Origin: a virus
Lineage: Duplodnaviria > Heunggongvirae > Uroviricota > Caudoviricetes
Length of the DNA: 57,829 nucleotides
Virus record (IMG/VR): IMGVR_UViG_2822641076_000001
Coordinates: 1 to 57,829 of that record
Reading direction: 5' to 3' (one strand)
A model generated the notes under the pieces. It worked only from the letters and a program-made list of their open reading frames with translations. It had not been told where the DNA came from and did not search any database. Both the position numbers and the translations under genes were made by a program. Below are positions 22,966-42,897 of this stretch, piece by piece; the stretch's first letter is position 1; each line of letters opens with the position of its first letter.

Positions 22966-23040
22966 TGGCACGCCCTCTAGGACTCGAACCTAGAATAGAA
23001 GTTTTGGAGACTTCTGTGTTACCAATTACACTAAAGGCGC
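22966..23040 (-). tRNA. tRNA-Trp(CCA)
   Basis: Cloverleaf, anticodon arm GAAGT-CTCCAAA-ACTTC, encoded CCA. Confidence 0.93.
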
Positions 23041-23100
23041 ATGACACCTTGCCGTTTATATTTAGTAGGAACGGCTAGGGTAGAAACCTACATACATTTG

Positions 23101-23515
23101 AAAAACTCACACAAGAAGTGCAGGAAACTCATGTGAGGTTGCACTTTTTCATATTTAGTTGTCTATAATGTTCGCATAAACCATCGTCAACGAACTCTAT
23201 CGCTCCCACACTTGCCTTCAATATGAGAAACAGAGCGACTTTCCAATGTCTACCGTTGGTGGGTTGGTATCCTTGTCCCACATCTCTTAGTAATTAAGCT
23301 TTTTTTAAGACTCGAACCGTTAATACGCTAGCATGTATTGTCACGTATTCAAGCGTGATAGCTACCTCTTCTATCCTCAACGGTGACTGCGATGATAGCA
23401 AGCAGATAAGACAATCTCTTATCGGGATGGATAATGGTATCTTTAAATCGTCCCCCATTCGGGAATGATGCAGTTGCCTTTGCACCTGACTAATTTTTTA
23501 GGCTTAGTCCACCTT
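23101..23515 (-). ncRNA. Unassigned structured RNA between tRNA-Ser and tRNA-Trp
   Basis: Many hairpins (GACTAA/TTAGTC, GATAAGA/TCTTATC, TCACG/CGTGA, AAGTGCA/TGCACTT) and no credible CDS. Confidence 0.4.
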
Positions 23516-23518
23516 TAA

Positions 23519-23608
23519 TGGAGGGAGAGAGGCTCGAACTCTCGCTACCTTTAAATAGGTACTAACAGTTTAGCAAACTGTCCTCTTCACCAACTTGAGT
23601 ACCCCTCC
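23519..23608 (-). tRNA. tRNA-Ser(GCT)
   Basis: Class II cloverleaf with a long variable arm, ACAGT-TTGCTAA-ACTGT, no encoded CCA. Confidence 0.9.
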
Positions 23609-23640
23609 AAGATAAAATCCAATTCCGTAAAAACAGAACT

Positions 23641-24458
23641 GGTCTTGCGTAGGCTGAGATTAAACCTCGCATTGAGTGCCTTTAGAAAGATTATATCTTC
23701 CTCTCTTATCCACGTAATCCTCTTTTGGAGCAATTACGTATCACTCACAACCGCACGTTTTAATTAGTCGCTGTGCATTCTGCGACCTGTTACACTACTA
23801 CTCAATAGCTCCTATTCTGTCAACGTTGCCACGCTATTAATCTCTGCTAAGAGAACCATGCAATTCACTATCAAACAATCAGAGTTTTGCGAACTCATCA
23901 TGCTCCTCATTCAACTTTCGTTGTGGGGATTTAGGTTGCCTTCGTAATGTAAGGAGACAGGCTTTCGCTTGTATGAATTTTAATTAGTCATATATTAATC
24001 ATCTTTTTAGATTACCATATCTAATACCTGTATTAGTCTCTGTGACCGAAGACGTGCTGTCTCAGTGGCTTCGTAATCTTTTGGATTACAAAATACCACA
24101 CGCCTTCATGTTCTTTCGCCAACTAGCTACTCAAACCGTAATCAAAGTTACTTTGGCTTTCGACCATTTCGCTTTCACTACTGACTGTCGCCCTTGCTTG
24201 TTAGACTCGGACTGTACAATCTCTCGATTCACTCTCGTTTCTTCATTACTTTAGCGTGGAGTGTATTGGTGCTAACCAATACTGCTACTACATCGTTGAC
24301 CTCGTAGCGTTTTCTCCGTAATTTCACGAAACTATCACCATCATCACAATGATGACTTAGGAGTGTCGATTGTGCTTGGATTGACCGTTTACACGGTGGC
24401 AACTTGTCACATTGCCTTTACGCAACTCACGTTACGCTATCAGAGCCAAGCCTCGAAG
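23641..24458 (-). ncRNA. Large structured ncRNA, ROOL-like (alternatively GOLLD)
   Basis: ~800 nt without a credible CDS inside a phage tRNA array. Dense hairpins include two with CAAAAG loops. The 3' segment AAAGGC...TAATCTCAGCCT resembles ROOL as recalled (unverified). Confidence 0.6.
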
Positions 24459-24464
24459 TAAAGA

Positions 24465-24537
24465 TGCACCTTGTAGGGTTCGAACCTACATATAACGGCT
24501 GTTTAGGCGGTCTGCTTTCACTTTAAGCTAAAGATGC
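24465..24537 (-). pseudogene. Degenerate tRNA (mismatched anticodon stem, loop CTAAACA)
   Basis: Intact acceptor (GCATCTT/AAGGTGC), D and T arms. The anticodon arm is irregular. Confidence 0.65.
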
Positions 24538-24552
24538 ATATTGAAGGGAGGG

Positions 24553-24623
24553 AGGAGTTTATCGGACTCGAACCGATTACGCCTTGACTACGCCAAGTGT
24601 TTTGCCTGTTAAACTAAAACTCC
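24553..24623 (-). pseudogene. Degenerate tRNA with a 5-nt anticodon loop (CGTAG)
   Basis: GGAGTTT/AAACTCC acceptor, intact D and T arms, anticodon arm CTTGG-CGTAG-TCAAG. Confidence 0.65.
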
Positions 24624-24626
24624 ATA

Positions 24627-24711
24627 TGGTGGCAGGGGTAGGACTCGAACCTACGAACTCGATTGAGGGGAGATTTACAGTCTCCTGTCATTGCCACTAG
24701 ACTACCCTGCC
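24627..24711 (-). tRNA. tRNA-Tyr(GTA)
   Basis: GGAGA-CTGTAAA-TCTCC, long variable arm, encoded CCA. Confidence 0.95.
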
Positions 24712-24720
24712 ATAATAAAC

Positions 24721-24796
24721 TAGCACCCCTAGAGAGATTCGAACTCCCGACTCACGGGGTAGAAACCCGTTGCTCTATCCACTGAGCTATAGGGGT
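24721..24796 (-). tRNA. tRNA-Arg(TCT)
   Basis: ACGGG-TTTCTAC-CCCGT. The 3' end reads CTA. Confidence 0.9.
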
Positions 24797-24801
24797 AAAA
24801 A

Positions 24802-24876
24802 TGATGTGGTATGAGAGAATCGAACTCTCATCTTCTGATTGGAAGTCAGAAATCATAGCCATTAGACCAATACCAC
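24802..24876 (-). tRNA. tRNA-Gly(TCC)
   Basis: TCTGA-CTTCCAA-TCAGA. The 3' end reads TCA. Confidence 0.9.
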
Positions 24877-24890
24877 ATGCTACAAAACTA

Positions 24891-24964
24891 AGAGGAGAGT
24901 GGGATTTGAACCCACGAATAATAGGGTTGCAACCTACCGTGTTAAGCCTCTTCACCATCTCCTC
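24891..24964 (-). tRNA. tRNA-Cys(GCA)
   Basis: GTAGG-TTGCAAC-CCTAT, U73 discriminator. Confidence 0.9.
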
Positions 24965-24970
24965 ATAAAA

Positions 24971-25123
<153 letters not shown>

Positions 25124-25220
25124 ATAATGGATGCTTGTTTTGATATCATAGGTCAAGCAGAACCTACCGCTTTGCGTACCGAATCGTAGATTAACGACGT
25201 GGAATCGGTAAAAACGTCAA

Positions 25221-25294
25221 TGCCGACTGTAGGAATCGAACCCACGACCTGTTGCTTACAAGGCAACCGCTCTAACCTGCTGAGCTAAGTCGGC
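25221..25294 (-). tRNA. tRNA-Thr(TGT)
   Basis: GTTGC-CTTGTAA-GCAAC. Confidence 0.93.
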
Positions 25295-25299
25295 TTAAA

Positions 25300-25530
25300 G
25301 GAGCTGTTATGTTTTTTACGTGGCGCTACTCCCCTGCGTCCACATCATTCAAGTTTTTCCGTTGCTTGCCAACTAGCTAGCTCCCGTAGTCTAGCAAGAA
25401 TTTTAAAGCCCACGTTTTATGACTTATTGTCACAGGTAGTGGAACACCCATCTTTCCTCTAATCCTATGTAAGCTGTTACCCTCAACATAAGACGACCTT
25501 TCGGAAGGGTCTTTCATCTGCATAATCTGC
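25300..25530 (-). ncRNA. Unassigned ~230-nt structured RNA between tRNA-His and tRNA-Thr
   Basis: Several hairpins and a terminal H-type pseudoknot. No ORF. Confidence 0.4.
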
Positions 25531-25533
25531 ATA

Positions 25534-25604
25534 TCAGCATGGAGAGAATCGAACTCTCATTCATGGATTCACAGTCCACTGCGTTACCATTACGCCACAC
25601 ACTG
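25534..25604 (-). tRNA. tRNA-His(GTG), atypical
   Basis: GTGGA-CTGTGAA-TCCAT. It lacks the G-1/C73 pair (C at -1, A73). Confidence 0.8.
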
Positions 25605-25662
25605 GAAACTAGATACTAAAACTAGGCTAATATCTAGTTTCCAAAGCATGGACTTTGGTCGA

Positions 25663-25736
25663 TTTCCAAGGAAGGCTTCGAACCTCCAAACTCTAGCTTC
25701 AAAGGCTAGTGACTTTACCAATTCGTCTACTCGGAA
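25663..25736 (-). tRNA. tRNA-Gln(TTG)
   Basis: CTAGC-CTTTGAA-GCTAG. Confidence 0.88.
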
Positions 25737-25740
25737 ATAA

Positions 25741-25815
25741 TGGCGGTGCATACGGGATTCGAACCCGTGCTACTTGGTAGACAGCCAAGTGTGTTAACCT
25801 CTACACTAATGCACC
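25741..25815 (-). tRNA. tRNA-Asp(GTC)
   Basis: CTTGG-CTGTCTA-CCAAG, encoded CCA. Confidence 0.95.
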
Positions 25816-25844
25816 ATAAAAGCATCCACTAAGGATGCGAAATA

Positions 25845-26087
25845 TTAAATACTAACTAAACCTTGAATATTCTTTCTTAAAACATCATTCTCAGCTTTAC
25901 TTGTTTTTGCATCTTCTACAAAGGATTGTAGATTAGCAATTTCAGCCTGAGCTTCCTTGATTACTTCGTCTAAATGTGCATCAGAAGCATCAATATCTTC
26001 AATCGCTTTTACAAATACTTCTTGGGCAGATTGTGTTTTAGCTTGAGCTTTTTTAATTCTTTTACCGTGTAAATCTCTTTTAATCAT
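25845..26087 (-). CDS. 80-aa coiled-coil protein inside the tRNA array
   Basis: RBS AAGGGGAAGGGA before MIKRDLHGK. The longer ORF in the track overlaps tRNA-Pro. Confidence 0.7.
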   Translation of the reverse strand: MIKRDLHGKRIKKAQAKTQSAQEVFVKAIEDIDASDAHLDEVIKEAQAEIANLQSFVEDAKTSKAENDVLRKNIQGLVSI

Positions 26088-26121
26088 AATTCCCTTCCCC
26101 TTTTTCTCCGTTTTAAAATAA

Positions 26122-26195
26122 TCGGGATGGCAGGACTTGAACCTACGGCATCCACACCCCAAATGTGGCACTCTACCAAACTGAGCTACATCCCG
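26122..26195 (-). tRNA. tRNA-Pro(TGG)
   Basis: CCACA-TTTGGGG-TGTGG. Confidence 0.93.
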
Positions 26196-26196
26196 A

Positions 26197-26250
26197 TGGA
26201 AGCAGGAGGTGAGTCACGACCTCATAAACAACCCGTTAGTTGCCTCCTGC
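26197..26250 (-). ncRNA. 54-nt tRNA-like RNA ending in CCA
   Basis: GCAGGAGG/CCTCCTGC stem, two short hairpins, 3' end TTCCA. Confidence 0.55.
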
Positions 26251-26251
26251 A

Positions 26252-26327
26252 TGGCGCACCTAGATGGATTCGAACCACCAACCAAAGAGTTAACAGCTCT
26301 CTGCTCTACCATTGGAGCTATAGGTGC
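26252..26327 (-). tRNA. tRNA-Asn(GTT)
   Basis: GAGAG-CTGTTAA-CTCTT, encoded CCA. Confidence 0.95.
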
Positions 26328-32523: not shown

Positions 32524-33276
32524 TCACTTTATTACGAGATAGATATTTGGACAATGACGACTACTGTCAGCGATTGTCTCTCTTTTAACAGCTAAGTACC
32601 CTTTCGTTTCTAGCAGTGAAGTGTATTTTCTAATCGTCCTCCTGCTCATTTTTAATACTCCTGTCATATAATCGTATGTACTTTGCATGTATCCTTTTCT
32701 AATACCGTTCTGATATTTTATAAATCCGTAAATCAAGAAGCCTACACAGCCTAATTCTTTGTCTTGGACAATAGACTTGAACACTTCAAAATCAACAGAA
32801 TGAGTATACTCTACTTGGTAGAAAGTACCGTCCAGTACCCCCTCTTCATACCGTGTATGTGCGAGTAAAGGCGATTTGACTTTTATGCCTCGATATGATA
32901 TAATATTCTTATTCGGAATATTCTTACGAATGTCACTAGCAGTTTCGAAGTCAAAGAGATTACCTTCCTCGTCGAAGATAGCTCTGACAGGATACTCACT
33001 AGTGCTTTTTGTGTATCCGATGCTATCAAGAATACCATTATCCTTAATAATGCTGTTTACAGTTTTGTTGTCAGGGTTGTAGCCTAAAAACTCCTTAATC
33101 CTCCGTTGGCTTACAAATTCGTTGTTATCATCAAAATGCAAGCAGTACTTGTACAGGAAATTAATATACGTATAATATGAATAAGCAAACCCGAACTTAC
33201 TAGCGTTCGTGAAATGGCTCGAAAAGTCCTTAAAAATTTCATTAGGTAAATACACAATCATGTTGACTAACACCAA
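32524..33276 (-). CDS. Putative replication initiator / winged-helix protein
   Basis: C-terminal HTH (YDYMTGVLKMSRRTIRKYTSLLETKGYL...NIY). Flanked by the inverted repeat copies. Confidence 0.55.
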   Translation of the reverse strand: MVLVNMIVYLPNEIFKDFSSHFTNASKFGFAYSYYTYINFLYKYCLHFDDNNEFVSQRRIKEFLGYNPDNKTVNSIIKDNGILDSIGYTKSTSEYPVRAIFDEEGNLFDFETASDIRKNIPNKNIISYRGIKVKSPLLAHTRYEEGVLDGTFYQVEYTHSVDFEVFKSIVQDKELGCVGFLIYGFIKYQNGIRKGYMQSTYDYMTGVLKMSRRTIRKYTSLLETKGYLAVKRETIADSSRHCPNIYLVIK

Positions 33277-34069: not shown

Positions 34070-35460
34070 GGAAATTGTTTATTACACCCCCCTCCCCTCG
34101 TCGATTTAGGCGTGGGGTATTGCTGTATCTAGAGATAATTGAGTCAGCCAATCGGACAAAAAATGATTTTGCGAAATTAATAGAATGCAAATATAAAATT
34201 ATCAGCCATTTGGTTATCGAGTTAGCTAACAGTTGAAGCCAAAATCGAAGTGAATCAAAGTTTAATAGATTCGAAATTAATGCTTGTGAGAGCTGAGAAA
34301 TAAAATGTAAGCCAAAATGATAGAATTGAATACGGAATTTAGCTAACGATGAAGCCTAAAATAAGGGAAATTTTAAGGAGTCATCGTTTTTATTTATGTA
34401 TTATAAGATTGAAAGCAGATGAATCGGTTGGTTATCGGACAAAATTGAGGTTTGAGTTGAGAGCAAAATAATAGATAAATAAGCGGTTTAGCGATAGCGT
34501 TTCGATAGCATCCGAATATAGGGTAAAATCGGACAAAATAATAGGAATTGCAATGAAATTGGCTGACATCGAGTCACCACAGAAAAGTGGGTCTAGGTGA
34601 TGTACAGTTGCGGGGCGGTTCTATTGGTGATGTCGGTTTGCGATTGTAAACTATCCCCCGTCCTATAACTTTACTTGTGGGACACTCGGCTTTATGGATG
34701 TCGTGGCTCGGCTCGGTTGAGCTTGTTGGCGTCGCTCGTCCCCGTGGTCGTCGGCTCGTCGGCTTGGCTCGGTTGGTCGAGATTTTGCCCACGATATTGC
34801 AAGCGATTTGCCCACGGTTGGCGGTTGGGTTTGAGATTCGCCACGGGTTACGGTTGCATGTCGGTCATCGGTTGCAATATAACATATGTCCATCTGTCGA
34901 ACACTATATCAGCAAATTTGCCACAATATGCCACGCTGACATTTGCTCTCTGAGGCGATTATCTCCTACGGCACGTACTACCCCACCTTACTAACTCTCT
35001 CAGAATTGCCCACAGGGAATAGGCAAACTCCTAAAAATTTGCCACATAATACCATCACTATAATTATGTGTGTCTTGTGCATGTGTGGGTTGGTCGGCTC
35101 TGCCTTGCCTTGGTTGGGTTGGCTTGTCTCACCTGTTATGTGTGTATGTCTTGTCATGTCCTTGTGTCTGTCGCTCTCTCTTGTCGTGTCGTGCCTTGTG
35201 CTGTTGGCTCGCTTGCTTGTGCGTGTGGTGTGTGCGTGTGTGCGTCACGCTGTCATGTGTTGGTGTGGTCGTCTTGGTGTGGTGTGCTTGTGTCATGTGT
35301 ATGTAGTGTTATACATGTGGTGTTATGATGTGGTTATGTGGTGCGGTTCTCCTGTTGGTTTCTGTATGGGTAATAGGGCAGGTTATACAGTAGGCTTATA
35401 TGATGGGCTTGTATGGGGATGTATCAATACAACAACGATAGATAAGGAGTAACAGTCTAA
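34070..35460. repeat. Non-coding block of short direct repeats and an A-poor TG-rich tract
   Basis: ATCGGACAAAA x3, GGCTCG(G/T) repeats, ATTTGCC(C)AC-like x6, and only 6 A in 35101-35280. Confidence 0.65.
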
Positions 35461-35570: not shown

Positions 35571-35990
35571 TTATTCTCTTGTCAATCGCTCGTGTGGTGT
35601 CAGACACATGTTAATGAATGTTCTATCACTGTACGATATGGAAATATCTACCCACATAGCAGAGGATATATAAACCTTTATTCTCGGTTGGTCTTTCAAC
35701 ACTATATTGTGATTGTTCCCAATAAACACTATTTGCTCCATTCTGCAATACTTGAAACCCTTCTCTTCATACGCTACTGTAAACCCGTTCGTTAAATATG
35801 CCGTTCCTTTTACTGCATTAAATAACCTACTATCTTTTAACACGTCTAACACCTTGTATAACGTCCTTTCACTCACTTCTATACCATTGGATTCCAACTC
35901 AGCTAAAGTGATGTTGTCATGTCCTTCTAGTGCGTCTGTCACTGCCTTGATTGCTTGTGTTGTTGTTGTGATTGGGCTTAATGTCGTCAT
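35571..35990 (-). CDS. Winged-helix-like DNA-binding protein
   Basis: ITLAELESNGIEVSERTLYKVLDVL. RBS AAGGAG. Confidence 0.6.
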   Translation of the reverse strand: MTTLSPITTTTQAIKAVTDALEGHDNITLAELESNGIEVSERTLYKVLDVLKDSRLFNAVKGTAYLTNGFTVAYEEKGFKYCRMEQIVFIGNNHNIVLKDQPRIKVYISSAMWVDISISYSDRTFINMCLTPHERLTRE

Positions 35991-36251
35991 GTTGTTCTGT
36001 CTCCTTTTATTTCCATCGGTTTATTTTCCTGTTTTTAATTATCAGATATTTCACAAATCAAAAATGATTTATAACTTTATGTAATTCTTTTCCAATCTAT
36101 CAAGGAAATCAATTTGCTTTTTCGTTTGGCTGATTTTACTATTAATTTTATAATTGGTTATCAATCTTTTAATTCTAGAAATCATTTTCCAATTCTCCTT
36201 TTAGTTGGTCGGGACTCGTGAGAGTCCCAGTTTTTAAAATTTTATTTTTGA

Positions 36252-36950
36252 TTAATTCCAAAAGTCAGATTTTACCCAACTACCATCCTCAGCTTGTACA
36301 TATCCATCTTTATTTCTATTTTCATCATTCAAATCATTTTCACGAAAATCTTTATCATAATCGCCTTTTTCCACCTTTTGAATATCGACAATTCTGTCAG
36401 TTGTGTTCCATAAATTCATAGCAACATTAATTTTGTCACCTAGTTTGTAAGTACCATTATTTTCTAAAACCATTGTGTCATTTGGGTTAAATTCATTTAC
36501 TAGGAAAATATATTCATCATCGTTAAAATCGTTAATTCCCTTTTCATTTGCATCCGTTACAATGTAAGTATTTTGAACCGTTGACATGTTTTGCACGTAA
36601 ACTATTTCAATGTCATCATGATTAAATTGTACTATTACGTTTTGCCCAACCATCGGGATATGATAGTCCATTTCCTCAGCGTTCGCATAAACAAAATCAG
36701 TGTCATCATGAATGTTATCCAGTTTGTAATATCCGTCTTCTGTTTTCTCTCCGTTGTATTTAAATTCTTGCATGAAAATGAAATCCTTATTTGTATCATG
36801 TGTAGAACGTGCAACCGTTGTTTTCTCTTCTGCTTTTGCATTACTGATAATTTCTAAATCCATTGATAGAAAACCTAGTCCTAAAATCGCTCCAATAATT
36901 CCAATTCCAACCATTTTTTTGATAAACTTTTTCATTTTAATTTGCTCCAT
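36252..36950 (-). CDS. Exported/membrane-anchored protein
   Basis: N-terminal KKFIKK plus a hydrophobic helix and an A-K-A signal-peptidase-like site. Confidence 0.7.
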   Translation of the reverse strand: MEQIKMKKFIKKMVGIGIIGAILGLGFLSMDLEIISNAKAEEKTTVARSTHDTNKDFIFMQEFKYNGEKTEDGYYKLDNIHDDTDFVYANAEEMDYHIPMVGQNVIVQFNHDDIEIVYVQNMSTVQNTYIVTDANEKGINDFNDDEYIFLVNEFNPNDTMVLENNGTYKLGDKINVAMNLWNTTDRIVDIQKVEKGDYDKDFRENDLNDENRNKDGYVQAEDGSWVKSDFWN

Positions 36951-36999
36951 TCACTTTTTATTTTTTTGTTTTAATTTCATTATTTTTTACATTTGTTTT

Positions 37000-37104
37000 T
37001 TAAAAGAAAGAAATAGTTTGAACCTTTCGAGCATGAACTAAGATTAACTTTCCGTTTACTACCATCATCATTTTAATTTCTTGTACTCGTGTAATTGTCA
37101 ACAT
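37000..37104 (-). CDS. 34-aa small protein (not in the ORF track)
   Basis: Own promoter and AGGAGATGTTTAAAAATG leader. MLTITRVQEIKMMMVVNGKLILVHARKVQTISFF. Confidence 0.6.
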   Translation of the reverse strand: MLTITRVQEIKMMMVVNGKLILVHARKVQTISFF

Positions 37105-37363
37105 TTTTAAACATCTCCTGTTTTATATATTTTGTAAGTGTTGTTCGTCTCAACTACCTTACATTTAAAATTTTATCAAATTAATAGTGCACTGTCAATG
37201 GATTTTAGAAAAATAGTTTTTTATTTTCGTTTCCATTAATGATATCAATTAGAAGCCTCAGATTGGCTTGTATGCGTTTCTATCCTTTCCATGTGTAATC
37301 ATATTAGATAACAAACTAGGACAAAAAGCATACTTTTTTCAAAAAATCAAGACTTGCCTTTCA

Positions 37364-37981
37364 TTATTTTTTACATTTATAAAGAATTTCTTTGGCGTGG
37401 TCAATCCACTCCGCCAAACACTCACAAGATATATTATCAATTTCAGAAAACTCTGTTTTGTTCTTGTTATAAGATTGCTGAATTTTACTAAATTGAATCA
37501 TCACTAAATTTTTATCCAGTAATGACAATTCGCTCATATGGTACATTCTGACATCAACAGTCTTTTGCAGAGTCCAAACCGCTTCTAATTTATGGTTTGT
37601 TAATTGCTCTCTCACTTGATATAAGCCGTTTGCAAATTGTCCCAATTCGTAAATTTCATTATTATGTCGAACCGCTAAACGGTTTTCAAATTTGATAATT
37701 TTACGTTTTAAAATCTTCCCATTAATCAGGACGTTAATTACCATATTGCTAAAGATATTATTATTCACGTACTCTTTAATGAAAGAATAAATTCCATCTT
37801 TCTTAGTTTCGTCTACAATCCCCATTGCACGATAAGAAGTTTCAAAAAGTACTACACGATATTTGTTATCAAGGTTATAAGCGTTACCGCCTTTTTGTTC
37901 GCCTGTGATATCATCTTTAATTAGAACATACTCATTTTTTAAAACTGGCTTTTCGATTACTACTGTTAAATTATCTGTCAT
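37364..37981 (-). CDS. Hypothetical protein downstream of hammerhead 1
   Basis: 205 aa with the GGAGATGTTTAAAAATG leader. Confidence 0.75.
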   Translation of the reverse strand: MTDNLTVVIEKPVLKNEYVLIKDDITGEQKGGNAYNLDNKYRVVLFETSYRAMGIVDETKKDGIYSFIKEYVNNNIFSNMVINVLINGKILKRKIIKFENRLAVRHNNEIYELGQFANGLYQVREQLTNHKLEAVWTLQKTVDVRMYHMSELSLLDKNLVMIQFSKIQQSYNKNKTEFSEIDNISCECLAEWIDHAKEILYKCKK

Positions 37982-38012
37982 TTTTAAACATCTCCATTTT
38001 GTAAATTATTTT

Positions 38013-38078
38013 TGGTTTGTCTCATCAGCATGTAAAGAACCACTTTACATGGACGGGACTCGAAAGTCCCGTTTCGAC
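38013..38078 (-). ncRNA. Type II hammerhead ribozyme 1
   Basis: GTC-GAAA-C-GGGAC(TTTCGA)GTCCC-GTC^-CATGTAAAG(TGGTT)CTTTACATG-CTGATGA-GAC-A-AACCA. Full core, GUC cleavage triplet, and loop I pairs with the 3' tail. Confidence 0.92.
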
Positions 38079-38132
38079 TTGTGGGAACGTCTTCCCTACA
38101 TTTGTTATTATAAGTGATAACAAATGTATATG

Positions 38133-38279
38133 TCAATCATTATTTTTTTCATTTGTATCAATCGGGAAAAATTCACCTTTTGTAATCTTGTTTCTGATTG
38201 CTTCAATACTAACTGGTACTAGAAGCGGAGAAAACAACCCAATCAGAATAATAATTGCATCCATAAATTGATTTAACAT
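38133..38279 (-). CDS. 48-aa small membrane protein (not in the ORF track)
   Basis: Leader AAGGTGTTTAAAAATG and a hydrophobic segment AIIILIGLFSPLLVPV. Confidence 0.6.
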   Translation of the reverse strand: MLNQFMDAIIILIGLFSPLLVPVSIEAIRNKITKGEFFPIDTNEKNND

Positions 38280-38409
38280 TTTTAAACACCTTTTCCTTTT
38301 TAGATTTTTGTAAGTCGTTTGTTCAACTACCTTACATTTAATATTTTACTAAAAAAGAAGACCACTGTCAATGCATTTAATTAAAATAATTTATTATTTT
38401 TTACATTTG

Positions 38410-38652
38410 TTACGAATCTTTAATTGTAACACTTTTTCCACTTTTCTCTAGAAAGTCGATTGATTCTCTAAGGACGGTTTCCGCACTTTCATAGACCACA
38501 CTTCCCAAAACAAGGCTTATATATCCCTCATGAGCATCGCCACCAATCCAATTTTCAGAATCGGAAATCTCATAATCATAACCGCCACACTCAAGAACAA
38601 CCTCCATTCCATCTTCTAGCATTTCCACGGCTTCTTTAAATTCAATTACCAT
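38410..38652 (-). CDS. Hypothetical acidic protein
   Basis: RBS AAAGGAG, with a class B operator upstream. Confidence 0.7.
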   Translation of the reverse strand: MVIEFKEAVEMLEDGMEVVLECGGYDYEISDSENWIGGDAHEGYISLVLGSVVYESAETVLRESIDFLEKSGKSVTIKDS

Positions 38653-38733
38653 TTTTATTCTCCTTTCATCAACCTAATGTTATTATAAATGATAACAATT
38701 ATTTTTGTAAACAATTATTTTTTACACTTGTTA

Positions 38734-39057
38734 TTAATACGTACCGATGGTTAGTTTTAACGTTTTTTTCTCTATATCAATTTCATATTCGCTATAACAA
38801 ATTTCAGCCGTTAAATGATTATCAAGGACAAAATCCTCGTCTAAATCTTCATCATGTTCCCTAACTAGTTCTATGTAGTCTCTCTGCATTCTCTCCGCAC
38901 TTCTAGTTGTATCCAAATCACCAAGCGAAATACTTCCACATACAGACGCTAACTCCTGATAACTAGTTTCCAACTGTTCACCATTGATAATTACAATCCC
39001 GTCTATAATCCCTTTGATGGCATTTCCGCCAATTAAATGTGCTACTATCATTTTCAT
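38734..39057 (-). CDS. Hypothetical protein
   Basis: Start moved to MKMIVAHL after AAGAGG. Confidence 0.7.
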   Translation of the reverse strand: MKMIVAHLIGGNAIKGIIDGIVIINGEQLETSYQELASVCGSISLGDLDTTRSAERMQRDYIELVREHDEDLDEDFVLDNHLTAEICYSEYEIDIEKKTLKLTIGTY

Positions 39058-39152
39058 TTCCTCTTTTCTGTATAATAGTTTCTTCGTTAACCTAATGTTA
39101 TTATAAATGATAACTAATTCGGATGTCAATCATTATTTTTTACATTTGTAAT

Positions 39153-39812
39153 TTAAATTTCAAAACTTAATTGCTCCAAGTCTCTTGCATACATTCGAGC
39201 CGTTTGTTTTAGCACACAAACCGCCTGTGACAATGAAATACTTTTAACGCCAATTCTACTAATATAGAATTTTAATTCTTTTGCTCGTTCATCCCAGTAT
39301 TGTAATTTAATTCCGTTTAAATTACCGTCTCTTTCAAGACAAACTTTAATTTCCTCTTTTGTAGCAGGTAGCAAAGGAATTAAAGTTTTTAAACCGATTC
39401 CATTTACAACATTTGTGTAAAATTCTTCGTGGCTCATGATTTCCCCAGTTTCCTTGACCATCATAGAATTAACCTTGTTAAACTCTTTTAAATTCATTTT
39501 ATTTTCCACCTTTTCATTTTTGATTAATGTATCATTGATTCTTTCATTTATTTGGTCAAGAGCTTCCCAAAACCATTCAGTACCTCGTAATTCTGTACGA
39601 GTTTCATTTTCTTTAGCTATCCAGTTTTTAATGAACGTAGTATCAGTAATTAGAGACCACTCTTTATTTAAAGTGCGTTCCACATATGCTTGAACCTCTT
39701 CTACAGTCTCGCCAATCTGTGAAGCGATTGACACCGTACCATCCGTACATTTAATTAAGAAAGAGTATTTGTTTAATGTTTCAGCTTGTGTCAGTTCCAT
39801 TTTAATTTCCAC
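39153..39812 (-). CDS. Hypothetical protein
   Basis: 219 aa with its own promoter and RBS AAAAGG. Confidence 0.7.
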   Translation of the reverse strand: MEIKMELTQAETLNKYSFLIKCTDGTVSIASQIGETVEEVQAYVERTLNKEWSLITDTTFIKNWIAKENETRTELRGTEWFWEALDQINERINDTLIKNEKVENKMNLKEFNKVNSMMVKETGEIMSHEEFYTNVVNGIGLKTLIPLLPATKEEIKVCLERDGNLNGIKLQYWDERAKELKFYISRIGVKSISLSQAVCVLKQTARMYARDLEQLSFEI

Positions 39813-39907
39813 CTTTTTATTTTATTTTCGAACCTATAGTTATTATAAATGATAACAATTGCGGATGTCAATCATTATTTTTTACATTTGTGAAATCACT
39901 TTCTTTT

Positions 39908-39974
39908 CGGCTTGTCTCATCAGTATGAATAGAGCCACTATTTCACAGACTGGGAATTATTCCCCAGTTTCGAC
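39908..39974 (-). ncRNA. Type II hammerhead ribozyme 2
   Basis: GTC-GAAA-C-TGGG(GAATAATT)CCCA-GTC^-TGTGAAATAG(TGGCT)CTATTCATA-CTGATGA-GAC-A-AGCCG. The pseudoknot covaries with copy 1. Confidence 0.9.
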
Positions 39975-39999
39975 CGTTGATTTATGAATTTTGTACTTA

Positions 40000-40287
40000 T
40001 TATTCGTGTGTTTCCGTGTATTTTACTTCCATCCAAGTATAATGTTCGGCTAAATTTTTATGAATCTTTTTCGCCTCGGCTTGTGCCTTCGTTTCTTCCT
40101 CTTGTTTGTATATAATTACAACCATGTCCTCAAGTAAATCCTCATTACTATCTAAAAGGTTAACCATTAAATCAAAACCGCTTTCGTCTTCGTCTCCATT
40201 CCAGTTGAAAAGTTCGACTTGTAATTTGCTCACTCTTGATTCATTAATCTTTTTCTTTACTTCTCTCAAATCCATATTACGTTCCAT
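40000..40287 (-). CDS. Hypothetical protein
   Basis: AGGAGATGTTTAAAAATG leader before MERNMDL. Confidence 0.72.
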   Translation of the reverse strand: MERNMDLREVKKKINESRVSKLQVELFNWNGDEDESGFDLMVNLLDSNEDLLEDMVVIIYKQEEETKAQAEAKKIHKNLAEHYTWMEVKYTETHE

Positions 40288-40452
40288 TTTTAAACATCTC
40301 CTTTGTTGCATCTGTTGTTATTATAAATGATAACAACTTTATATGTCAACACTTATTTTTGTAGTTGAGAAAAGGTGTACTTCCCTCAACTACATTTAAA
40401 ATTCTATCAGATAATAAATCCACTGTCAATGCATTATATGAAATTTGTTCAT

Positions 40453-40734
40453 TTATTTTTCAATGTAGTAATGAACACTTTTTCCAACCTCAGCAGAGCA
40501 ATTATAATAAGTGAACTCATTAATTTTTCGCTCCATATTTGATAATTCGCCTTCTTTTTCGTTTCCTAACACATCAACGGTTTTCAAGTCGTCTTGTGTC
40601 CACTCAACAGGGATTGCCATATTAAAAGGATGTCCCATGTTTGGGAAGCTTTTAGAAGGACATAATAAGCCTTTAAAAGCACCTTCCTTTTTGATGATAG
40701 ATTTTACTTGTGCTTTCGTGATTTTAATTAACAT
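40453..40734 (-). CDS. Hypothetical protein
   Basis: AGGAGATGTTTGAAAATG leader before MLIKITK. Confidence 0.72.
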   Translation of the reverse strand: MLIKITKAQVKSIIKKEGAFKGLLCPSKSFPNMGHPFNMAIPVEWTQDDLKTVDVLGNEKEGELSNMERKINEFTYYNCSAEVGKSVHYYIEK

Positions 40735-41117
40735 TTTCAAACATCTCCTTCGTTGCGTCTTTTGTTATTATAAATGATAACAAAATGACATGTCAACAAC
40801 TAATTTCATTATTTGTTTCACTTGTATTCCGTTTGTTTATTACGTCCCTAATGTTACAGAAAAATCAGTGCACTGTCAATGGATTTTATGAATTATTTTT
40901 AGTTTGTAGTTTTCAATCACGCATATATATAGAAGAAACTCGAAACTACCATATAAAGAGCATTTCGACTTATATTGTATTTTTTATTCGTAATTATCTG
41001 ACTATAATCGCAGCAAAAACCAGTAAACAAAATCAAAATAGAGACAACAGGAAGAATGAGAGACAGAGCGATGACATAGGCGAGCGGTACGGCTCGTTCA
41101 TTTTTGACACTCAGTTC

Positions 41118-41376
41118 GTATCCATTTCTATGATTTACAATGAAATCGTATTAAGTAATAGGCACGCACATATTCCCACCAATATATGCACCACAATACA
41201 CATAGGCGCAGGTGCAAGCACCACATATACTCACTAACGCTAGCACACACTATGTATTGTGCATCTATCATAGGGGTACACACCTATATTTTTAGTGTGC
41301 ATTATGTATCCATTTCTACAATTCATAATGAAAACGCATTAAGTAATAGGCGCTCAAATATTGCCACCAATATAAT
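41118..41376. repeat. ~70-bp imperfect direct repeat
   Basis: GTATCCATTTCTA...AATGAAA...TTAAGTAATAGGC...ATATT.CCACCAATATA at ~41118-41187 and ~41306-41376. Confidence 0.75.
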
Positions 41377-41965
41377 ATATAATAGGCACATATATAACAT
41401 ACCATTATAGTAGTTGTATATAAATTACATAATAAGATATAGTATTATATAACTATATATAATGTAACATATTGTAATGGCATCTTATGTAAGAGATTAA
41501 TATATAATAGAATGTATATTAATCTAGGACAGATTCATAGAAGAAGATAGAAATATACATATAATAGGCGTCGCATAATGATGCATTTACGCGTTACACA
41601 TACAGTAATATGCAGGTGTCTTTGTGATGTCTCGGCTAAGCATGGCGCATTTCATATGCAAGGACATGCGAATCAGCAACGGAATGGCATACAGCTATAT
41701 ATACAGCGCTTAGAATGCAAAACAAATTAATAGATTAATATAGAGAGAATTATATATACGTGTATTTGCGGTGCAGGTGCGACGACACATGGAATCGCTG
41801 AGGCAAAAATCACTTAGTTGCGAAGCATTTACAAGCCTCCCTAAGCCTCCCGAAACGTTGATGTTTTGCGACGTGTCGTTGACGGATTCTGTCATGCCCT
41901 ATCGAGCTGTATGGCGTCACTATGATTGTATAAAAGAGTGATTTTACCTCAACATAGCATGGAAA

Positions 41966-42370
41966 CCACAAATCAAAATTCGTTAATTTGCAACGGATTC
42001 TGAAATCAGAAATCAAATTCGGATTGCGAAATCAAAAAGAAATCCCGAAATCAGTTTCCGAAACCAAATTCAAAAACCAAATTCAAAAATGAACCTCCAA
42101 GAACAACAGCGAAACTCAAATGATTTTCAGACCTGTTCCCCACCTCCTCACGGCAAATCCATGAATCAAAACACATTTTGTAAATAATTTTCGTTTTATA
42201 CAATCCACAAATCATAAAAGAAATCGAGAAATCATAAAAGAAAATTGAAAAAGAGAATCAAATTTAGAATCCCGAAAAGAAAATCATTCTCTATGCTTTC
42301 CTATACCTTTTAGCCTCACGAATCGAGTTTCTTCTATAAATAGGACTCCGTTGGAATCCACAAATCAAAA
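41966..42370 (+). repeat. AAATC-rich direct repeat array
   Basis: 12 AAATC copies, including CCACAAATCA x3. Non-coding. Confidence 0.6.
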
Positions 42371-42588
42371 ACAAATTATATAATATTATATAATGTAATA
42401 TAAAATATTATAATAAATCCATTGACAGTGGATGGGTAAAAATGTATACTAATCCATGTAATCAACAAACGGGAGCTGATAAGCAACAAGAAACCCGAAA
42501 GCATAATTAATTTATTACTTGTCTTTAACTAGACAAATCTCAAAACAGAAACAAAAAATGATTTTAGGAATTAAGGGGATGTTTAAAA

Positions 42589-42897
42589 ATGAAATTAGAA
42601 TTTTCACGTCATGCACAGGAGCGTATCACAGAGCGTCATATTACACGAGGAGAAATTGTTTGTGCTGTATTATATGGAAATCGAGAAAAGGCAAACAAAC
42701 GTTGGACATTCGAATATACATATAAAGATTTTGTTATTGTGGTTGCAGAACATGAAAATGGCAAAATGGTTGTGGTATCATGTGAGTATACACAAAAATT
42801 TACCAAATACGCTAAGAAATTCGCAAAACAAAACGGAATCGGATTCTACAAAGCTCTTAGACGCTTGAGAGAATCTAACTTTACACTAGCATCATAA
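42589..42897 (+). CDS. DUF4258-like protein (RelE/BrnT-like fold)
   Basis: F SRHAQER..ER.I...EI...V..G pattern. First gene of the rightward array. Confidence 0.6.
   Translation: MKLEFSRHAQERITERHITRGEIVCAVLYGNREKANKRWTFEYTYKDFVIVVAEHENGKMVVVSCEYTQKFTKYAKKFAKQNGIGFYKALRRLRESNFTLAS

What the first reader, a model, noticed from the sequence alone, without database searches (positions are those of the whole stretch)
35571..40900. Ribozyme-punctuated array of single-gene expression cassettes between two non-coding repeat blocks
Seen in sequence: ten small leftward genes, most with their own near-consensus sigma-A promoter carrying a class A or class B palindrome. They share a class C box, a common RBS/start leader and 5' hairpins, and two hammerhead ribozymes sit at cassette junctions. 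Inference: this is a modular early (host-takeover or anti-defence) region. Two repressors would gate separate cassette subsets, and self-cleavage would insulate transcripts or set their stability. Hammerheads are known in phages, but I do not recall this combination being described as a system.
Basis: partly seen in the sequence, partly recalled or inferred. Interest (0 to 1): 0.85.

Follow-up and report, generated by a model that had tools for sequence, protein, structure and literature searches.

The report
Phage early-gene array with two hammerheads
This is the early-gene region of a large Bacillus phage: a row of small genes of unknown function, each behind a very strong host-type promoter, with two genuine self-cutting hammerhead RNAs between genes, a tidy example of an arrangement known in phages since 2011 whose purpose is still unproven.

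Summary
Between 35.6 and 40.9 kb there are 11 small leftward ORFs. Six promoters match TTGACA-18-TATAAT (five at 12/12) and carry a GTTATC-N6-GATAAC dyad over the -10 (class A). Four promoters carry an invariant CATTGACAGTG block at the -35 (class B). A common leader, 5' hairpins and two hammerheads are also present.

Both hammerheads are complete type II ribozymes with a loop I / 3'-tail pseudoknot. Rfam does not call them. A model built from 70 other viral copies scores them at 58 and 54 bits, with no other hit in the 153.6 kb genome. They are identical in the one close relative (L127).

The interpretation needs three corrections:
- The 'class C box' is not a cassette feature. It is a 21-nt motif found 50-67 times genome-wide, probably the phage's middle/late promoter; the phage encodes a sigma factor.
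- Class B promoters extend over 30-64 kb on both arms.
- Type II pseudoknot hammerheads flanking single phage genes were described by Perreault et al. 2011, and this scan has met such arrays on other DNA.

Cassette content does differ from L127 by whole genes. Verdict: a new member of a known kind, of moderate interest.

The parts
40851..40879 (-). Class B sigma-A-type promoter PB4 (TTGACA-17-TAACAT), with the CATTGACAGTG block at the -35
40764..40796 (-). Class A promoter PA6 (TTGACA-18-TATAAT, 12/12) with dyad GTTATCATTTATAATAAC at 40764-40781 over the -10
40453..40734 (-). Gene 1, 93 aa, no known family; leader GGAGATGTTTGAAAATG
   Evidence: 89% identical to the L127 homologue
40350..40429 (-). 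Class B promoter PB3 (TTGACA-17-TAGAAT) and its leader, which begins with a 15-bp hairpin (-19.3 kcal/mol, z -5.9)
40317..40349 (-). Class A promoter PA5 (12/12) with dyad at 40317-40334; sits in tandem behind PB3
40000..40287 (-). Gene 2, 95 aa, no known family
39905..39977 (-). HH-b, a type II hammerhead. Stem II is GUC 39974-39972 with GAC 39916-39914. Stem III hairpin is 39968-39949. C17 is 39948, so the predicted cut is 39948|39947. Stem I hairpin is 39947-39924. CUGAUGA is 39923-39917. Loop I UGGCU pairs with the tail AGCCG. It lies 25 nt after the stop of gene 2 and upstream of the next C box and promoter.
   Evidence: 54.0 bits, E 6e-13
39839..39889 (-). C box (39889-39872) abutting class A promoter PA4 (12/12; dyad 39839-39856)
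39153..39800 (-). Gene 3, 215 aa. Residues 98-215 match a stand-alone 118-aa gene of L127. Residues 1-97 are an extra module fused in frame. An internal RBS and ATG are kept near 39497.
   Evidence: (D13)
39097..39147 (-). C box (39147-39130) abutting class A promoter PA3 (12/12; dyad 39097-39114)
38734..39051 (-). Gene 4, 105 aa, no known family
38679..38729 (-). C box (38729-38712) and class A promoter PA2 (TTTACA-18-TATAAT, 11/12; dyad 38679-38696)
38410..38652 (-). Gene 5, 80 aa, phrog_5365 (unknown function)
38280..38408 (-). C box (38408-38391), class B promoter PB2 (TTGACA-17-TAAAAT) and a leader with a 5' hairpin
38133..38279 (-). Gene 6, 48 aa; its last codons and stop lie inside the next C box and -35
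38104..38154 (-). C box variant (38154-38137) abutting class A promoter PA1 (12/12; dyad 38104-38121)
38010..38081 (-). HH-a, a type II hammerhead in the 5' UTR of gene 7. Stem II is GUC 38078-38076 with GAC 38021-38019. Stem III (UUCG loop) is 38072-38053. C17 is 38052, so the predicted cut is 38052|38051. Stem I (9 bp) is 38051-38029. CUGAUGA is 38028-38022. Loop I UGGUU pairs with the tail AACCA. The start codon lies 38 nt downstream. A leader hairpin at 38100-38080 precedes it.
   Evidence: the MFE fold is the hammerhead fold, z -3.9; 58.4 bits, E 4e-14
37364..37981 (-). Gene 7, 205 aa, no known family; its last codons lie in a C box
37200..37378 (-). C box (37378-37361) followed by a ~160-nt non-coding unit holding a promoter-less dyad GTAATCATATTAGATAAC (37295-37312). 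The unit occurs twice in L127.
37105..37198 (-). Class B promoter PB1 (TTGACA-17-TAAAAT) and a leader with a 5' hairpin (-10.7 kcal/mol, z -3.7)
37000..37104 (-). Gene 8, a 34-aa ORF behind the common leader; whether it codes is uncertain
36252..36994 (-). C box (36994-36977) and gene 9 (232 aa; hydrophobic N-terminus; phrog_20419, unknown function)
35571..36232 (-). Hairpin 36232-36211, whose stem sequence resembles stem III of HH-a; gene 10 (38 aa, 36185-36069); gene 11 (139 aa, 35990-35571), for which there is only a weak lead to a winged-helix fold
35061..35420 (-). Untranslated tract that on the transcribed strand is 34% C, 15% G and 9% U; a candidate Rho loading site that would end the terminator-less array
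   Evidence: (no leftward intrinsic terminators)
40900..42450 (.). 1.5-kb non-coding divergence region with a ~69-bp direct repeat (41118 and 41306); it ends at the first rightward class B promoter (42422-42450)

Best explanation
The stretch is the leftward arm of the early transcription region of a ~154 kb Bacillus cereus-group siphovirus.

Shown from the sequence: ten strong host sigma-A-type promoters drive eight of eleven small accessory genes of unknown function. No intrinsic terminators lie between the genes.

Inferred: each promoter fires into the genes downstream of it, so overlapping read-through transcripts arise. They probably run on into a C-rich, G-poor tract at 35.4-35.1 kb that could load Rho.

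Shown as sequence, structure and conservation: two type II pseudoknot hammerhead ribozymes sit in this array.

Inferred: the ribozymes cut these transcripts at fixed points.
- HH-a lies between promoter PA1 and the ribosome-binding site of the 205-aa gene. Whatever promoter made the transcript, cleavage would give that mRNA the same 5' end: a 5'-OH directly on the 9-bp stem I hairpin. The upstream RNA would end in the stem III hairpin with a 2',3'-cyclic phosphate.
- HH-b does the same job 25 nt after the stop of the 95-aa gene. It would give that mRNA a hairpin-capped 3' end and uncouple it from the next cassette.
- The ribozymes would therefore act as fixed end-makers, or insulators, in place of terminators. 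Whether cutting raises or lowers mRNA stability in Bacillus is open.

Inferred from the conserved dyads: GTTATC-N6-GATAAC over the -10 (class A) and the near-palindrome CCAYTGWCARTGG over the -35 (class B) are operator sites for unidentified regulators.

Inferred from position: the 'class C box' (ACAAGTGTAAAAAATAATGAA) is the phage's own genome-wide promoter-type element. It is probably read by RNA polymerase carrying the phage-encoded SigB/F/G-like sigma factor. If so, array genes that have both a C box and a sigma-A promoter can be expressed in both phases.

Shown by comparison with L127: genes enter and leave the array as whole cassettes, in at least one case between repeated promoter modules.
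For: Promoters:
- One search finds five 12/12 and five 10-11/12 leftward sites. It finds no credible leftward intrinsic terminator between cassettes.

Dyads:
- The class A dyad occurs 8 times against 0.2 expected.
- The spacer between the -35 and the dyad varies among copies while the dyad does not.
- Two L127 copies read GTTATCAT-TT-ATGATAAC, a perfect 8+8 palindrome.

Hammerheads:
- All core nucleotides and the type II topology are present.
- There are two in the genome, against 1 in total across 30 simulated genomes.
- The minimum-free-energy fold of HH-a is the hammerhead fold.
- The two copies differ in stems I and III and in the pseudoknot while keeping every pair: UGGUU/AACCA versus UGGCU/AGCCG.
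- A covariance model built from 70 other viral copies gives 58.4 and 54.0 bits, E about 1e-13, with only these two hits in 153.6 kb.
- In that viral set 91% of cells pair against 67% after shuffling, and all five pseudoknot pairs covary.
- Loop-to-tail pairing of at least 5 bp occurs in 65 of 95 copies, against a permuted mean of 14.8 and a maximum of 27.
- Rfam RF02276 recognises 11 members of the same set.
- In L127, HH-a and about 100 nt around it are identical, although the block averages 84% identity. HH-b is identical within the fold.

Position:
- In 72 of 115 viral copies an SD-led ORF starts within 40 nt downstream (median 27), against 2 of 115 in a mirror control.
- HH-a, at 38 nt, fits this pattern.

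C box:
- It is a 21-nt block with no conserved -35.
- There are 50-67 copies, all co-oriented with the genes and 8-130 nt before start codons. One sits in a divergent intergenic region (33318+). Others precede the RNR, DNA polymerase and tail genes.
- The phage sigma factor gene lies at G000 70645-71379, with two C boxes and a sigma-A-type promoter upstream.
- No T7-like RNA polymerase was found.

Cassette turnover:
- L127 has three SD-led genes with no counterpart anywhere in this genome, and the window has an extra 97-aa module.
- The first L127-only cassette is bounded by two copies of the 75-nt promoter-plus-leader module.

Rho tract.

Literature: type II hammerheads with a loop I / 3'-tail pseudoknot, and multiple copies flanking single prophage genes, are described in PMC3088659. 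Type II hammerheads cleave in vivo in Desulfovibrio vulgaris (PMC8782182).
Against: - No RNA evidence of any kind was obtained.
- Rfam's own Hammerhead_II model does not reach threshold, or even E of 10, on either copy.
- My model was built from sequences picked with a pattern taken from the window's copies, so the core match is partly circular.
- HH-b does not sit in the usual place just before an RBS. A C box and a promoter lie between it and the next gene.
- No regulator for either dyad was found. Repeated promoter modules could share sequence partly through recent duplication.
- Nothing shows that the phage sigma factor reads the C box.
- Six annotated relatives (Kirov, Izhevsk, pW4, Thrax3, 0524phi7-1, Nate) have no such hammerhead, so the ribozymes are not needed for this kind of early region.
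- From established knowledge of the glmS ribozyme, stated from memory: in Bacillus subtilis a 5'-OH end can make RNA a target of RNase J1. Cleavage could therefore destabilise the downstream mRNA rather than protect it.
Confidence: 0.7

Rival explanations
1. The array is an integrated, undescribed system in which two dedicated repressors gate two separate subsets of anti-defence or host-takeover cassettes, and the ribozymes were recruited specifically as insulators of that system.
For: Two distinct conserved dyads overlap the core promoter elements. The class A promoter-operator is found only in this phage and in L127. Cassettes turn over between the two phages. A weak winged-helix lead exists for the last gene of the array (score 0.86, below the level at which such hits are reliable).
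Against: Class B sites are spread over 30-64 kb on both arms, and two cassettes carry B and A in tandem, so the subsets are not separate. The C box, counted as a shared cassette part, is genome-wide. No repressor was found. No cassette protein matches any defence, anti-defence or takeover family. Hammerheads occupy only two of about ten junctions. The same ribozyme class sits before genes in over 120 unrelated viral contigs. The arrangement is published.
Confidence: 0.15
2. The hammerheads are passengers: mobile or relic self-cleaving elements carried along with exchanged cassettes, with no role in expression of the array.
For: Only 2 of about 10 junctions have one. Six annotated relatives with similar early regions have none. 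HH-b is not in the usual pre-RBS position. A hairpin at 36232-36211 resembles stem III of HH-a and could be a decayed copy. The biological role of bacterial and phage hammerheads is still called unresolved in the 2019 review PMC6765202.
Against: Both are intact at every core position. They keep all pairs despite differing from each other. They are identical in L127, although the surrounding DNA has diverged by 4-16%. Across the class the position just upstream of an RBS is strongly non-random, 72 of 115 against 2.
Confidence: 0.12
3. The C box is not a promoter. It is instead an UP-element-like enhancer of the adjacent sigma-A promoters, or a 3'-end, processing or protein-binding signal that marks gene ends.
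For: In four cassettes it abuts the -35 hexamer exactly where an UP element would lie. It is A-rich. It often overlaps the stop codon of the preceding gene. At 70539 it sits in the loop of a terminator-like hairpin.
Against: Most of the 50-67 copies have no sigma-A -35 or -10 after them and lie 8-40 nt before an RBS. One copy (33318, + strand) opens a rightward gene in a divergent intergenic region, where there is no upstream gene to end. A 21-nt invariant block is far more specific than an UP element.
Confidence: 0.2

Closest known systems
Type II hammerhead ribozymes with a loop I / 3'-tail pseudoknot (Rfam RF02276; Perreault et al. 2011, PMC3088659)
   Same: Identical catalytic core (CUGAUGA, GAAA, C17). 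[quoted passage not shown] A 5-bp pseudoknot forms between loop I and the nucleotides 1 nt after stem II. The setting is a phage, between small genes of unknown function.
   Different: Both copies score below Rfam's threshold. Stem I is long (9-10 pairs) with a 5-nt loop, a minority form in the viral set (8 of the 90 copies that qualified for model building). This is, as far as the searchable literature shows, an unreported host group: large Bacillus cereus-group siphoviruses.
Multiple hammerheads flanking single genes in prophages (Clostridium scindens, Azorhizobium caulinodans, Agrobacterium tumefaciens ardA locus; Perreault et al. 2011), and the halovirus HF1/HF2 hammerhead in front of the first early gene
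   Same: Ribozymes lie at gene junctions of a long phage transcription unit. One copy sits in a 5' UTR just before the start codon of an early gene. The proposed role is cutting long transcripts into gene-length mRNAs.
   Different: Here most genes also have their own strong promoter, so processing is not needed to express them. Only two junctions carry a ribozyme. One ribozyme lies about 20 nt after a predicted transcription start, and the other lies before a promoter.
Early-gene arrays of large Bacillus phages, for example the SPO1 host-takeover module with its many strong sigma-A early promoters and the phage sigma cascade gp28 then gp33/34 (from general knowledge, not tested here)
   Same: Dense strong host-type promoters stand before many small ORFan genes. 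A phage-encoded sigma factor goes with a different, genome-wide promoter-type motif for later genes.
   Different: No sequence relationship was found. The sigma factor here is a single SigB/F/G-like protein. The motif differs from the SPO1 middle and late consensus sequences. SPO1 is not known to have ribozymes in that module.
RiboJ-type synthetic ribozyme insulators (a hammerhead plus a hairpin placed between promoter and RBS; from general knowledge)
   Same: HH-a occupies the same place, between promoter and RBS. Cleavage would remove the promoter-dependent 5' leader and leave a hairpin at the new 5' end.
   Different: RiboJ is an engineered device derived from a plant satellite RNA. Here the arrangement is natural and its effect is untested.

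Membership tests
Hammerhead ribozyme, type II | Conserved catalytic core: C3-U4-G5-A6-N7-G8-A9, G12-A13-A14, and a non-G nucleotide at position 17 | tested here: met
   Both copies have CUGAUGA, GAAA and C17
Hammerhead ribozyme, type II | Three stems around the core with stems I and III closed by loops and stem II open, and with standard pairs next to the core (A15.1-U16.1, 10.1-11.1, 1.1-2.1) | tested here: met
   Stem III has 8 perfect pairs in both copies in the strict gap-free count. Stem I has 9 perfect pairs in HH-a. In HH-b it has 6 perfect pairs in that count, or about 10 allowing one bulged A. Stem II is G-C, A-U, C-G. The MFE fold of HH-a is exactly this structure.
Hammerhead ribozyme, type II | Tertiary contact between stems I and II, here a pseudoknot between loop I and the 3' tail of stem II | tested here: met
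   UGGUU/AACCA and UGGCU/AGCCG, both starting 1 nt after stem II, with a compensatory difference between the copies. The helix covaries across 70 viral copies and exceeds the permutation control.
Hammerhead ribozyme, type II | Score at or above the gathering threshold of Rfam RF02276 (37 bits) | tested here: not met
   There was no hit at the gathering score, nor at E up to 10, even on 170-nt stretches. The same model does recognise 11 viral copies from my pattern-selected set. A model built from 70 such copies scores the window at 58.4 and 54.0 bits. The failure therefore reflects the long stem I and short loop, not the core.
Hammerhead ribozyme, type II | Site-specific self-cleavage giving a 2',3'-cyclic phosphate and a 5'-OH | not testable with these tools
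Sigma-A (sigma-70 type) promoter | -35 TTGACA and -10 TATAAT hexamers with 17 +/- 1 bp spacing | tested here: met
   Five sites at 12/12 and five at 10-11/12, all leftward and each upstream of a gene
Sigma-A (sigma-70 type) promoter | Transcription starts 6-9 nt after the -10 | not testable with these tools
   No RNA data were available
Repressor-operator control of phage early promoters | A dyad-symmetric site overlapping core promoter elements, conserved beyond what the promoter needs | tested here: met
   GTTATC-N6-GATAAC occurs 8 times against 0.2 expected. A perfect 8+8 palindrome occurs in L127. The CATTGACAGTG block is invariant in all class B copies of both phages.
Repressor-operator control of phage early promoters | A cognate DNA-binding regulator encoded by the phage | tested here: inconclusive
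   There are only weak leads: gene 11 scores 0.86 to winged-helix clusters in the Atlas with no Pfam hit. HTH_36 in the 250-aa protein at 32524-33276 scores just below Pfam's cut-off.
Phage sigma-factor-dependent middle/late promoter (reading of the C box) | A conserved motif upstream of, and co-oriented with, non-early genes across the genome, plus a phage-encoded sigma factor | tested here: met
   50-67 copies lie before replication, nucleotide-metabolism and tail genes. A 244-aa SigB/F/G-like sigma factor is encoded.
Phage sigma-factor-dependent middle/late promoter (reading of the C box) | Transcription initiates at the motif and depends on the phage sigma factor | not testable with these tools
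   Needs RNA 5'-end mapping or in vitro transcription

The most novel reading that the evidence does not exclude
The array is a natural plug-and-play expression platform. Standard parts would let unrelated accessory genes be swapped in and out by recombination between the repeated modules and still be expressed predictably in both early and later phases. The parts are a sigma-A promoter with an operator, a phage-sigma C box, a common leader, a 5'-terminal hairpin, and in two places a hammerhead that resets the mRNA end. On this reading the hammerheads act as true insulators, natural counterparts of RiboJ, whose 5'-OH-plus-hairpin product escapes RNase J1. That would give phage type II hammerheads their first defined function.
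Probability: 0.25. Interest if true: 0.6.

Novelty: new member of a known kind. Interest (0 to 1): 0.35.

Why it matters
What bacterial and phage hammerheads are for has been open since 2011, and the 2019 review still calls it undefined. This locus is a convenient test case for three reasons:
- It has only two ribozymes in a 154 kb genome.
- One sits about 20 nt after a consensus sigma-A promoter and 38 nt before a start codon. The other sits in a 3' UTR.
- The host group is genetically tractable, and the roles of RNase J1, RNase Y and Rho in RNA decay and termination are well studied in its relative Bacillus subtilis.

Active and dead ribozyme reporters would show directly whether cleavage stabilises, destabilises or merely separates the mRNAs.

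Three results beyond the locus may be useful:
- In the viral set I sampled (over 120 contigs), these ribozymes sit a median of 27 nt before a start codon.
- Rfam's RF02276 misses the form with a long stem I and a short loop.
- The 21-nt C box, together with a phage sigma factor, defines a likely transcription programme for this unstudied phage lineage.

None of this is a new kind of system.

Tried and rejected
- Rfam at the gathering score and at E up to 10, on the whole window, on the region and on short stretches, gave no hammerhead call. The only trace was an 11.7-bit partial type III match to HH-b, which uses the wrong GAAA and which I reject. RF02276 on the whole genome found no candidates.
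- Megablast of the array against phages gave no match. Against plasmids it gave one 171-bp piece. Distant blastn gave only ~300-bp gene pieces at 67-75% identity in Tsamsa-like, Kirov-like, Basilisk-like and Tsarbombavirus phages. A 166-nt query holding promoter PA1 and HH-a found nothing in phages.
- The class A promoter-operator pattern was absent from bacterial genome and metagenome contigs and present only in L127's genome among viral contigs.
- A strict hammerhead pattern in Kirov, Izhevsk and pW4 gave only chance hits without hairpins. My covariance model found none in those three, nor in Thrax3, 0524phi7-1 or Nate.
- I first thought stem II of HH-b might be extended by CGG/CCG. L127 has U in place of that G with no compensating change, so I dropped the idea.
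- I considered that the left non-coding block might hold the genome ends, by analogy with Izhevsk's layout. L127's genome is complete with terminal repeats, and the array lies about 105-112 kb into that record, away from the ends. I do not claim this.
There was no PF00940 hit, though that search rang in no control genome either. None of the nine large ORFs I scanned is a polymerase of that kind; three longer ORFs (457, 481 and 512 aa) and the two giant ORFs were not scanned.
- Function of the cassette proteins: Pfam, PHROGs, PADLOC and PDB sequence searches gave nothing usable. The Atlas search for gene 11 gave only a sub-threshold winged-helix lead.
- Literature searches for the C-box sequence and for hammerheads in Bacillus phages found nothing relevant.

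Full report
**What the window is.** The window is the first 57.8 kb of a 153.6 kb virus record that CheckV estimates as 94% complete. Only short gene pieces match annotated phages, at 67-75% identity. All of those phages infect the Bacillus cereus group: Kirov, Izhevsk, Thrax, MrDarsey, Nate, pW4 and a Tsarbombavirus. One close relative exists in IMG/VR. It is a complete 152.9 kb genome with terminal repeats, referred to here as L127 or G001, and its array DNA is 84-96% identical.

**The observation.** On the minus strand between 40734 and 35571 there are 11 small ORFs with plausible ribosome-binding sites.
- The promoter scan gives five perfect TTGACA-18-TATAAT sites, one 11/12 site, and four further sites at 10-11/12. 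All are leftward.
- The six sites with an 18-bp spacer carry GTTATCA(T/C)TTATAATAAC over the -10; this is class A.
- The four sites with a 17-bp spacer carry an invariant AT.CATTGACAGTG block around the -35; this is class B.
- The repeat finder recovers these families, the leader GGAGATGTTTAAAAATG and the 'C box' as multi-copy direct repeats.
- Three of the four class B leaders begin with a hairpin 3 nt from the predicted start, and so does the class A leader ahead of HH-a.
- No credible leftward intrinsic terminator lies between the cassettes.

The description is therefore accurate. The count is eleven ORFs rather than ten, and the last three genes have no sigma-A-type promoter of their own.

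**The hammerheads are real.** Rfam reports no hammerhead in the window. It reports none for the region at E up to 10, and none on 170-nt stretches apart from an 11.7-bit partial type III match that uses the wrong GAAA. RF02276 finds no candidates in the genome. Read directly, however, both sites have the full type II architecture: 5'-GUC, GAAA, stem III hairpin, C17, stem I hairpin, CUGAUGA, GAC-3'.
- My own scan for this architecture finds exactly these two sites in 153.6 kb on both strands. Thirty simulated genomes gave one hit in total.
- The minimum-free-energy fold of HH-a is the hammerhead fold, with z = -3.9.
- In both copies loop I can pair with the five nucleotides that start 1 nt after stem II. 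The two copies differ there in a compensatory way: UGGUU/AACCA versus UGGCU/AGCCG.
It often occurs several times per contig, for example seven times in 3 kb in L041.
- In those copies stem II is 3-4 bp.
- Loop I pairs with the tail far more often than in a permutation control: 65 of 95 against a mean of 14.8 and a maximum of 27.
- On an alignment of 70 of them, 91% of cells pair against 67% after shuffling, and every pseudoknot pair shows changes on both sides.
- Rfam's RF02276 does recognise 11 of these viral copies, so the set belongs to the curated family.
- A covariance model built from the 70 viral copies alone scores the window's sites at 58.4 and 54.0 bits (E about 1e-13), full length. 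It finds nothing else in the genome.

The window's copies have a long stem I with a 5-nt loop. That is a minority form and probably explains why the Rfam model misses them.

In L127, HH-a and about 100 nt around it are identical to the window, although the block averages 84% identity. HH-b is identical within the fold.

The predicted cuts are 38052|38051 and 39948|39947.

**Where the ribozymes sit.** HH-a lies about 20 nt after the predicted start of promoter PA1 and 38 nt before the start codon of the 205-aa gene. This is the usual place for the class. In 72 of 115 viral copies an SD-led ORF starts within 40 nt downstream (median 27), against 2 of 115 in a mirror control. HH-b lies 25 nt after the stop of the 95-aa gene, but a C box and promoter PA4 separate it from the next gene. 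In L127 an extra 108-aa gene ends inside the stem III loop of HH-b.

**What the C box is.**
- The box is not special to the array. At up to 3 mismatches it occurs 67 times in the genome, and at up to 2 mismatches 50 times. It is always co-oriented with the local genes.
- It is a contiguous 21-nt block, ACAAGTGTAAAAAATAATGAA, with no conserved -35. It lies 8-130 nt before start codons.
- It precedes the ribonucleotide reductase, DNA polymerase and tail genes.
- One copy opens a rightward gene in a divergent intergenic region (33318), which argues for a promoter rather than a gene-end signal.
- Consensus sigma-A-type promoters are confined to about 30-64 kb.
- The phage encodes a 244-aa SigB/F/G-like sigma factor. 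The gene is itself preceded by a sigma-A-type promoter and two C boxes.
- I found no phage RNA polymerase.

The simplest reading is a cascade. Host sigma-A drives the early region, including the sigma gene, and the phage sigma factor then reads the C boxes. Array genes that have both elements could be expressed in both phases. This is inference. The exact box occurs only in this phage and in L127, and it is absent from the searchable literature.

**Operators.** The class A dyad is best written GTTATC-N6-GATAAC.
- It occurs 8 times in the window against 0.2 expected. Seven copies lie in the array, including a promoter-less copy in a ~160-nt non-coding unit that L127 has twice.
- Two L127 copies are perfect 8+8 palindromes.
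- The spacer between the -35 and the dyad varies among copies while the dyad does not. That points to a constraint beyond promoter function.
- Class B is a near-palindrome around TTGACA, invariant in all copies of both phages. It is used by 17 sites from 30 to 64 kb and beyond, on both arms.
- Two cassettes have class B and class A in tandem, so 'two repressors gating separate subsets' is not what the layout shows.
- No regulator was identified; there are only weak leads.

**Cassette turnover.** Ten of the eleven genes are syntenic with L127 at 58-96% protein identity. L127 has three extra SD-led genes (145, 108 and 71 aa) that have no counterpart anywhere in this genome. The window's 215-aa ORF carries an extra 97-aa N-terminal module fused in frame to what is a stand-alone 118-aa gene in L127. 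The 145-aa cassette is bounded by two copies of the 75-nt promoter-plus-leader module, as expected from recombination between repeats. Homologues of single cassette genes occur in unrelated Bacillus phages, including a myovirus.

**Mechanism.** There are many strong promoters and no terminators, so overlapping read-through transcripts are expected.
- The ribozymes would cut them at fixed points.
- The upstream RNA would end in the stem III hairpin with a cyclic phosphate.
- The downstream RNA would start with a 5'-OH directly on the stem I hairpin.
- From established knowledge of Bacillus RNA decay, stated from memory, 5'-terminal hairpins protect mRNAs, whereas the 5'-OH made by the glmS ribozyme attracts RNase J1. 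The direction of the effect therefore cannot be predicted and must be measured.
- After the last gene, the transcripts enter a tract that is 34% C, 15% G and 9% U on the RNA strand. Such a tract could load Rho.

**Comparison with what is known.** Perreault et al. 2011 (PMC3088659) described all of the following:
- type II hammerheads and the loop I / 3'-tail pseudoknot;
- stem II of as few as one or two pairs;
- several hammerheads flanking single genes or short gene blocks in prophages, with the proposal that long phage transcripts are cut into gene-length mRNAs;
- a halovirus hammerhead in front of the first early gene, whose cleavage site matches the mapped 5' end.

Type II copies cleave in vivo in Desulfovibrio vulgaris (PMC8782182). 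The 2019 review still calls the biological purpose undefined (PMC6765202). This scan has already filed a four-ribozyme phage early operon under the same heading (note e1-3425814).

**Verdict.** This is a new member of a known kind. Its value is as a clean, tractable test case, together with the side results on the C box and on the placement of this ribozyme class.

Noticed in passing
window 23651-24108 (-), 22969-26327 (-), 23251-23385 (-): A GOLLD RNA (204 bits against a threshold of 150) lies inside an array of 16 tRNA genes. A skipping-rope RNA (47 bits against a threshold of 36.7) lies beside it.
   Followed up: no
whole genome G000; in the window e.g. 9871, 15085, 26762, 27818, 30134, 33318, 36994-39889, 46835: A 21-nt motif, ACAAGTGTAAAAAATAATGAA, occurs 50-67 times, always co-oriented with the genes and usually 10-25 nt before an RBS. 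It has no conserved -35. It is found only in this phage and its one close relative, and is absent from the searchable literature. It is probably the phage's own promoter.
   Followed up: partly
G000 70645-71379 (+), outside the window (L128:1378-2112): A phage-encoded 244-aa sigma factor of SigB/F/G type. Its gene is preceded by a sigma-A-type promoter and two C boxes, one of which sits in the loop of a terminator-like hairpin.
   Followed up: partly
window 35061-35420: On the strand transcribed by the array this tract is 34% C, 15% G and only 9% U (3% U in 35101-35280). It could be a Rho loading site that ends the terminator-less array. It creates spurious ORFs on the other strand.
   Followed up: partly
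window 37200-37363; L127 5418-5610 and 6622-6791: A ~160-nt non-coding unit lies between a C box and a class B promoter. It holds a promoter-less GTTATC-N6-GATAAC-type dyad, and it is single in the window but duplicated in L127. Its role is unknown.
   Followed up: partly
window 36211-36232 (-): The hairpin GGGACUCucacGAGUCCC lies between genes 9 and 10. Its stem is nearly the same as stem III of HH-a (GGGACUuucgAGUCCC) and it is preceded by AAAAC. It could be a remnant of a third hammerhead or an independent 3' hairpin.
   Followed up: no
window 39153-39800 (-), junction near 39497: The 215-aa ORF is an in-frame fusion of a 97-aa module with a gene that stands alone in L127 and in pW4-like phages. 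The internal RBS (GGTGGA) and ATG are kept, so both a long and a short product are possible.
   Followed up: partly
L127 3568-3894 with the hammerhead at 3874-3946: In the relative, an extra 108-aa gene ends with its stop codon inside the stem III loop of HH-b. The ribozyme therefore overlaps the end of a coding sequence, and the predicted cut falls a few nucleotides after the stop.
   Followed up: no
viral loci L001-L120, e.g. L041 8402-11317: Type II hammerheads with the same GUC/GAC stem II are very common in IMG/VR; over 120 contigs were found before the scan hit its limit. They often form arrays, for example 7 in 3 kb. In 63% of copies a start codon lies within 40 nt downstream. Rfam RF02276 misses the form with a long stem I and a short loop (L048, L127, this window).
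   Followed up: partly
window 42589-42897 (+) and 32524-33276 (-): The first rightward gene after the divergence region encodes a DUF4258 protein (27 bits against a cut-off of 25). A 250-aa leftward protein has an HTH_36 match just below Pfam's cut-off (23.9 against 25).
   Followed up: no
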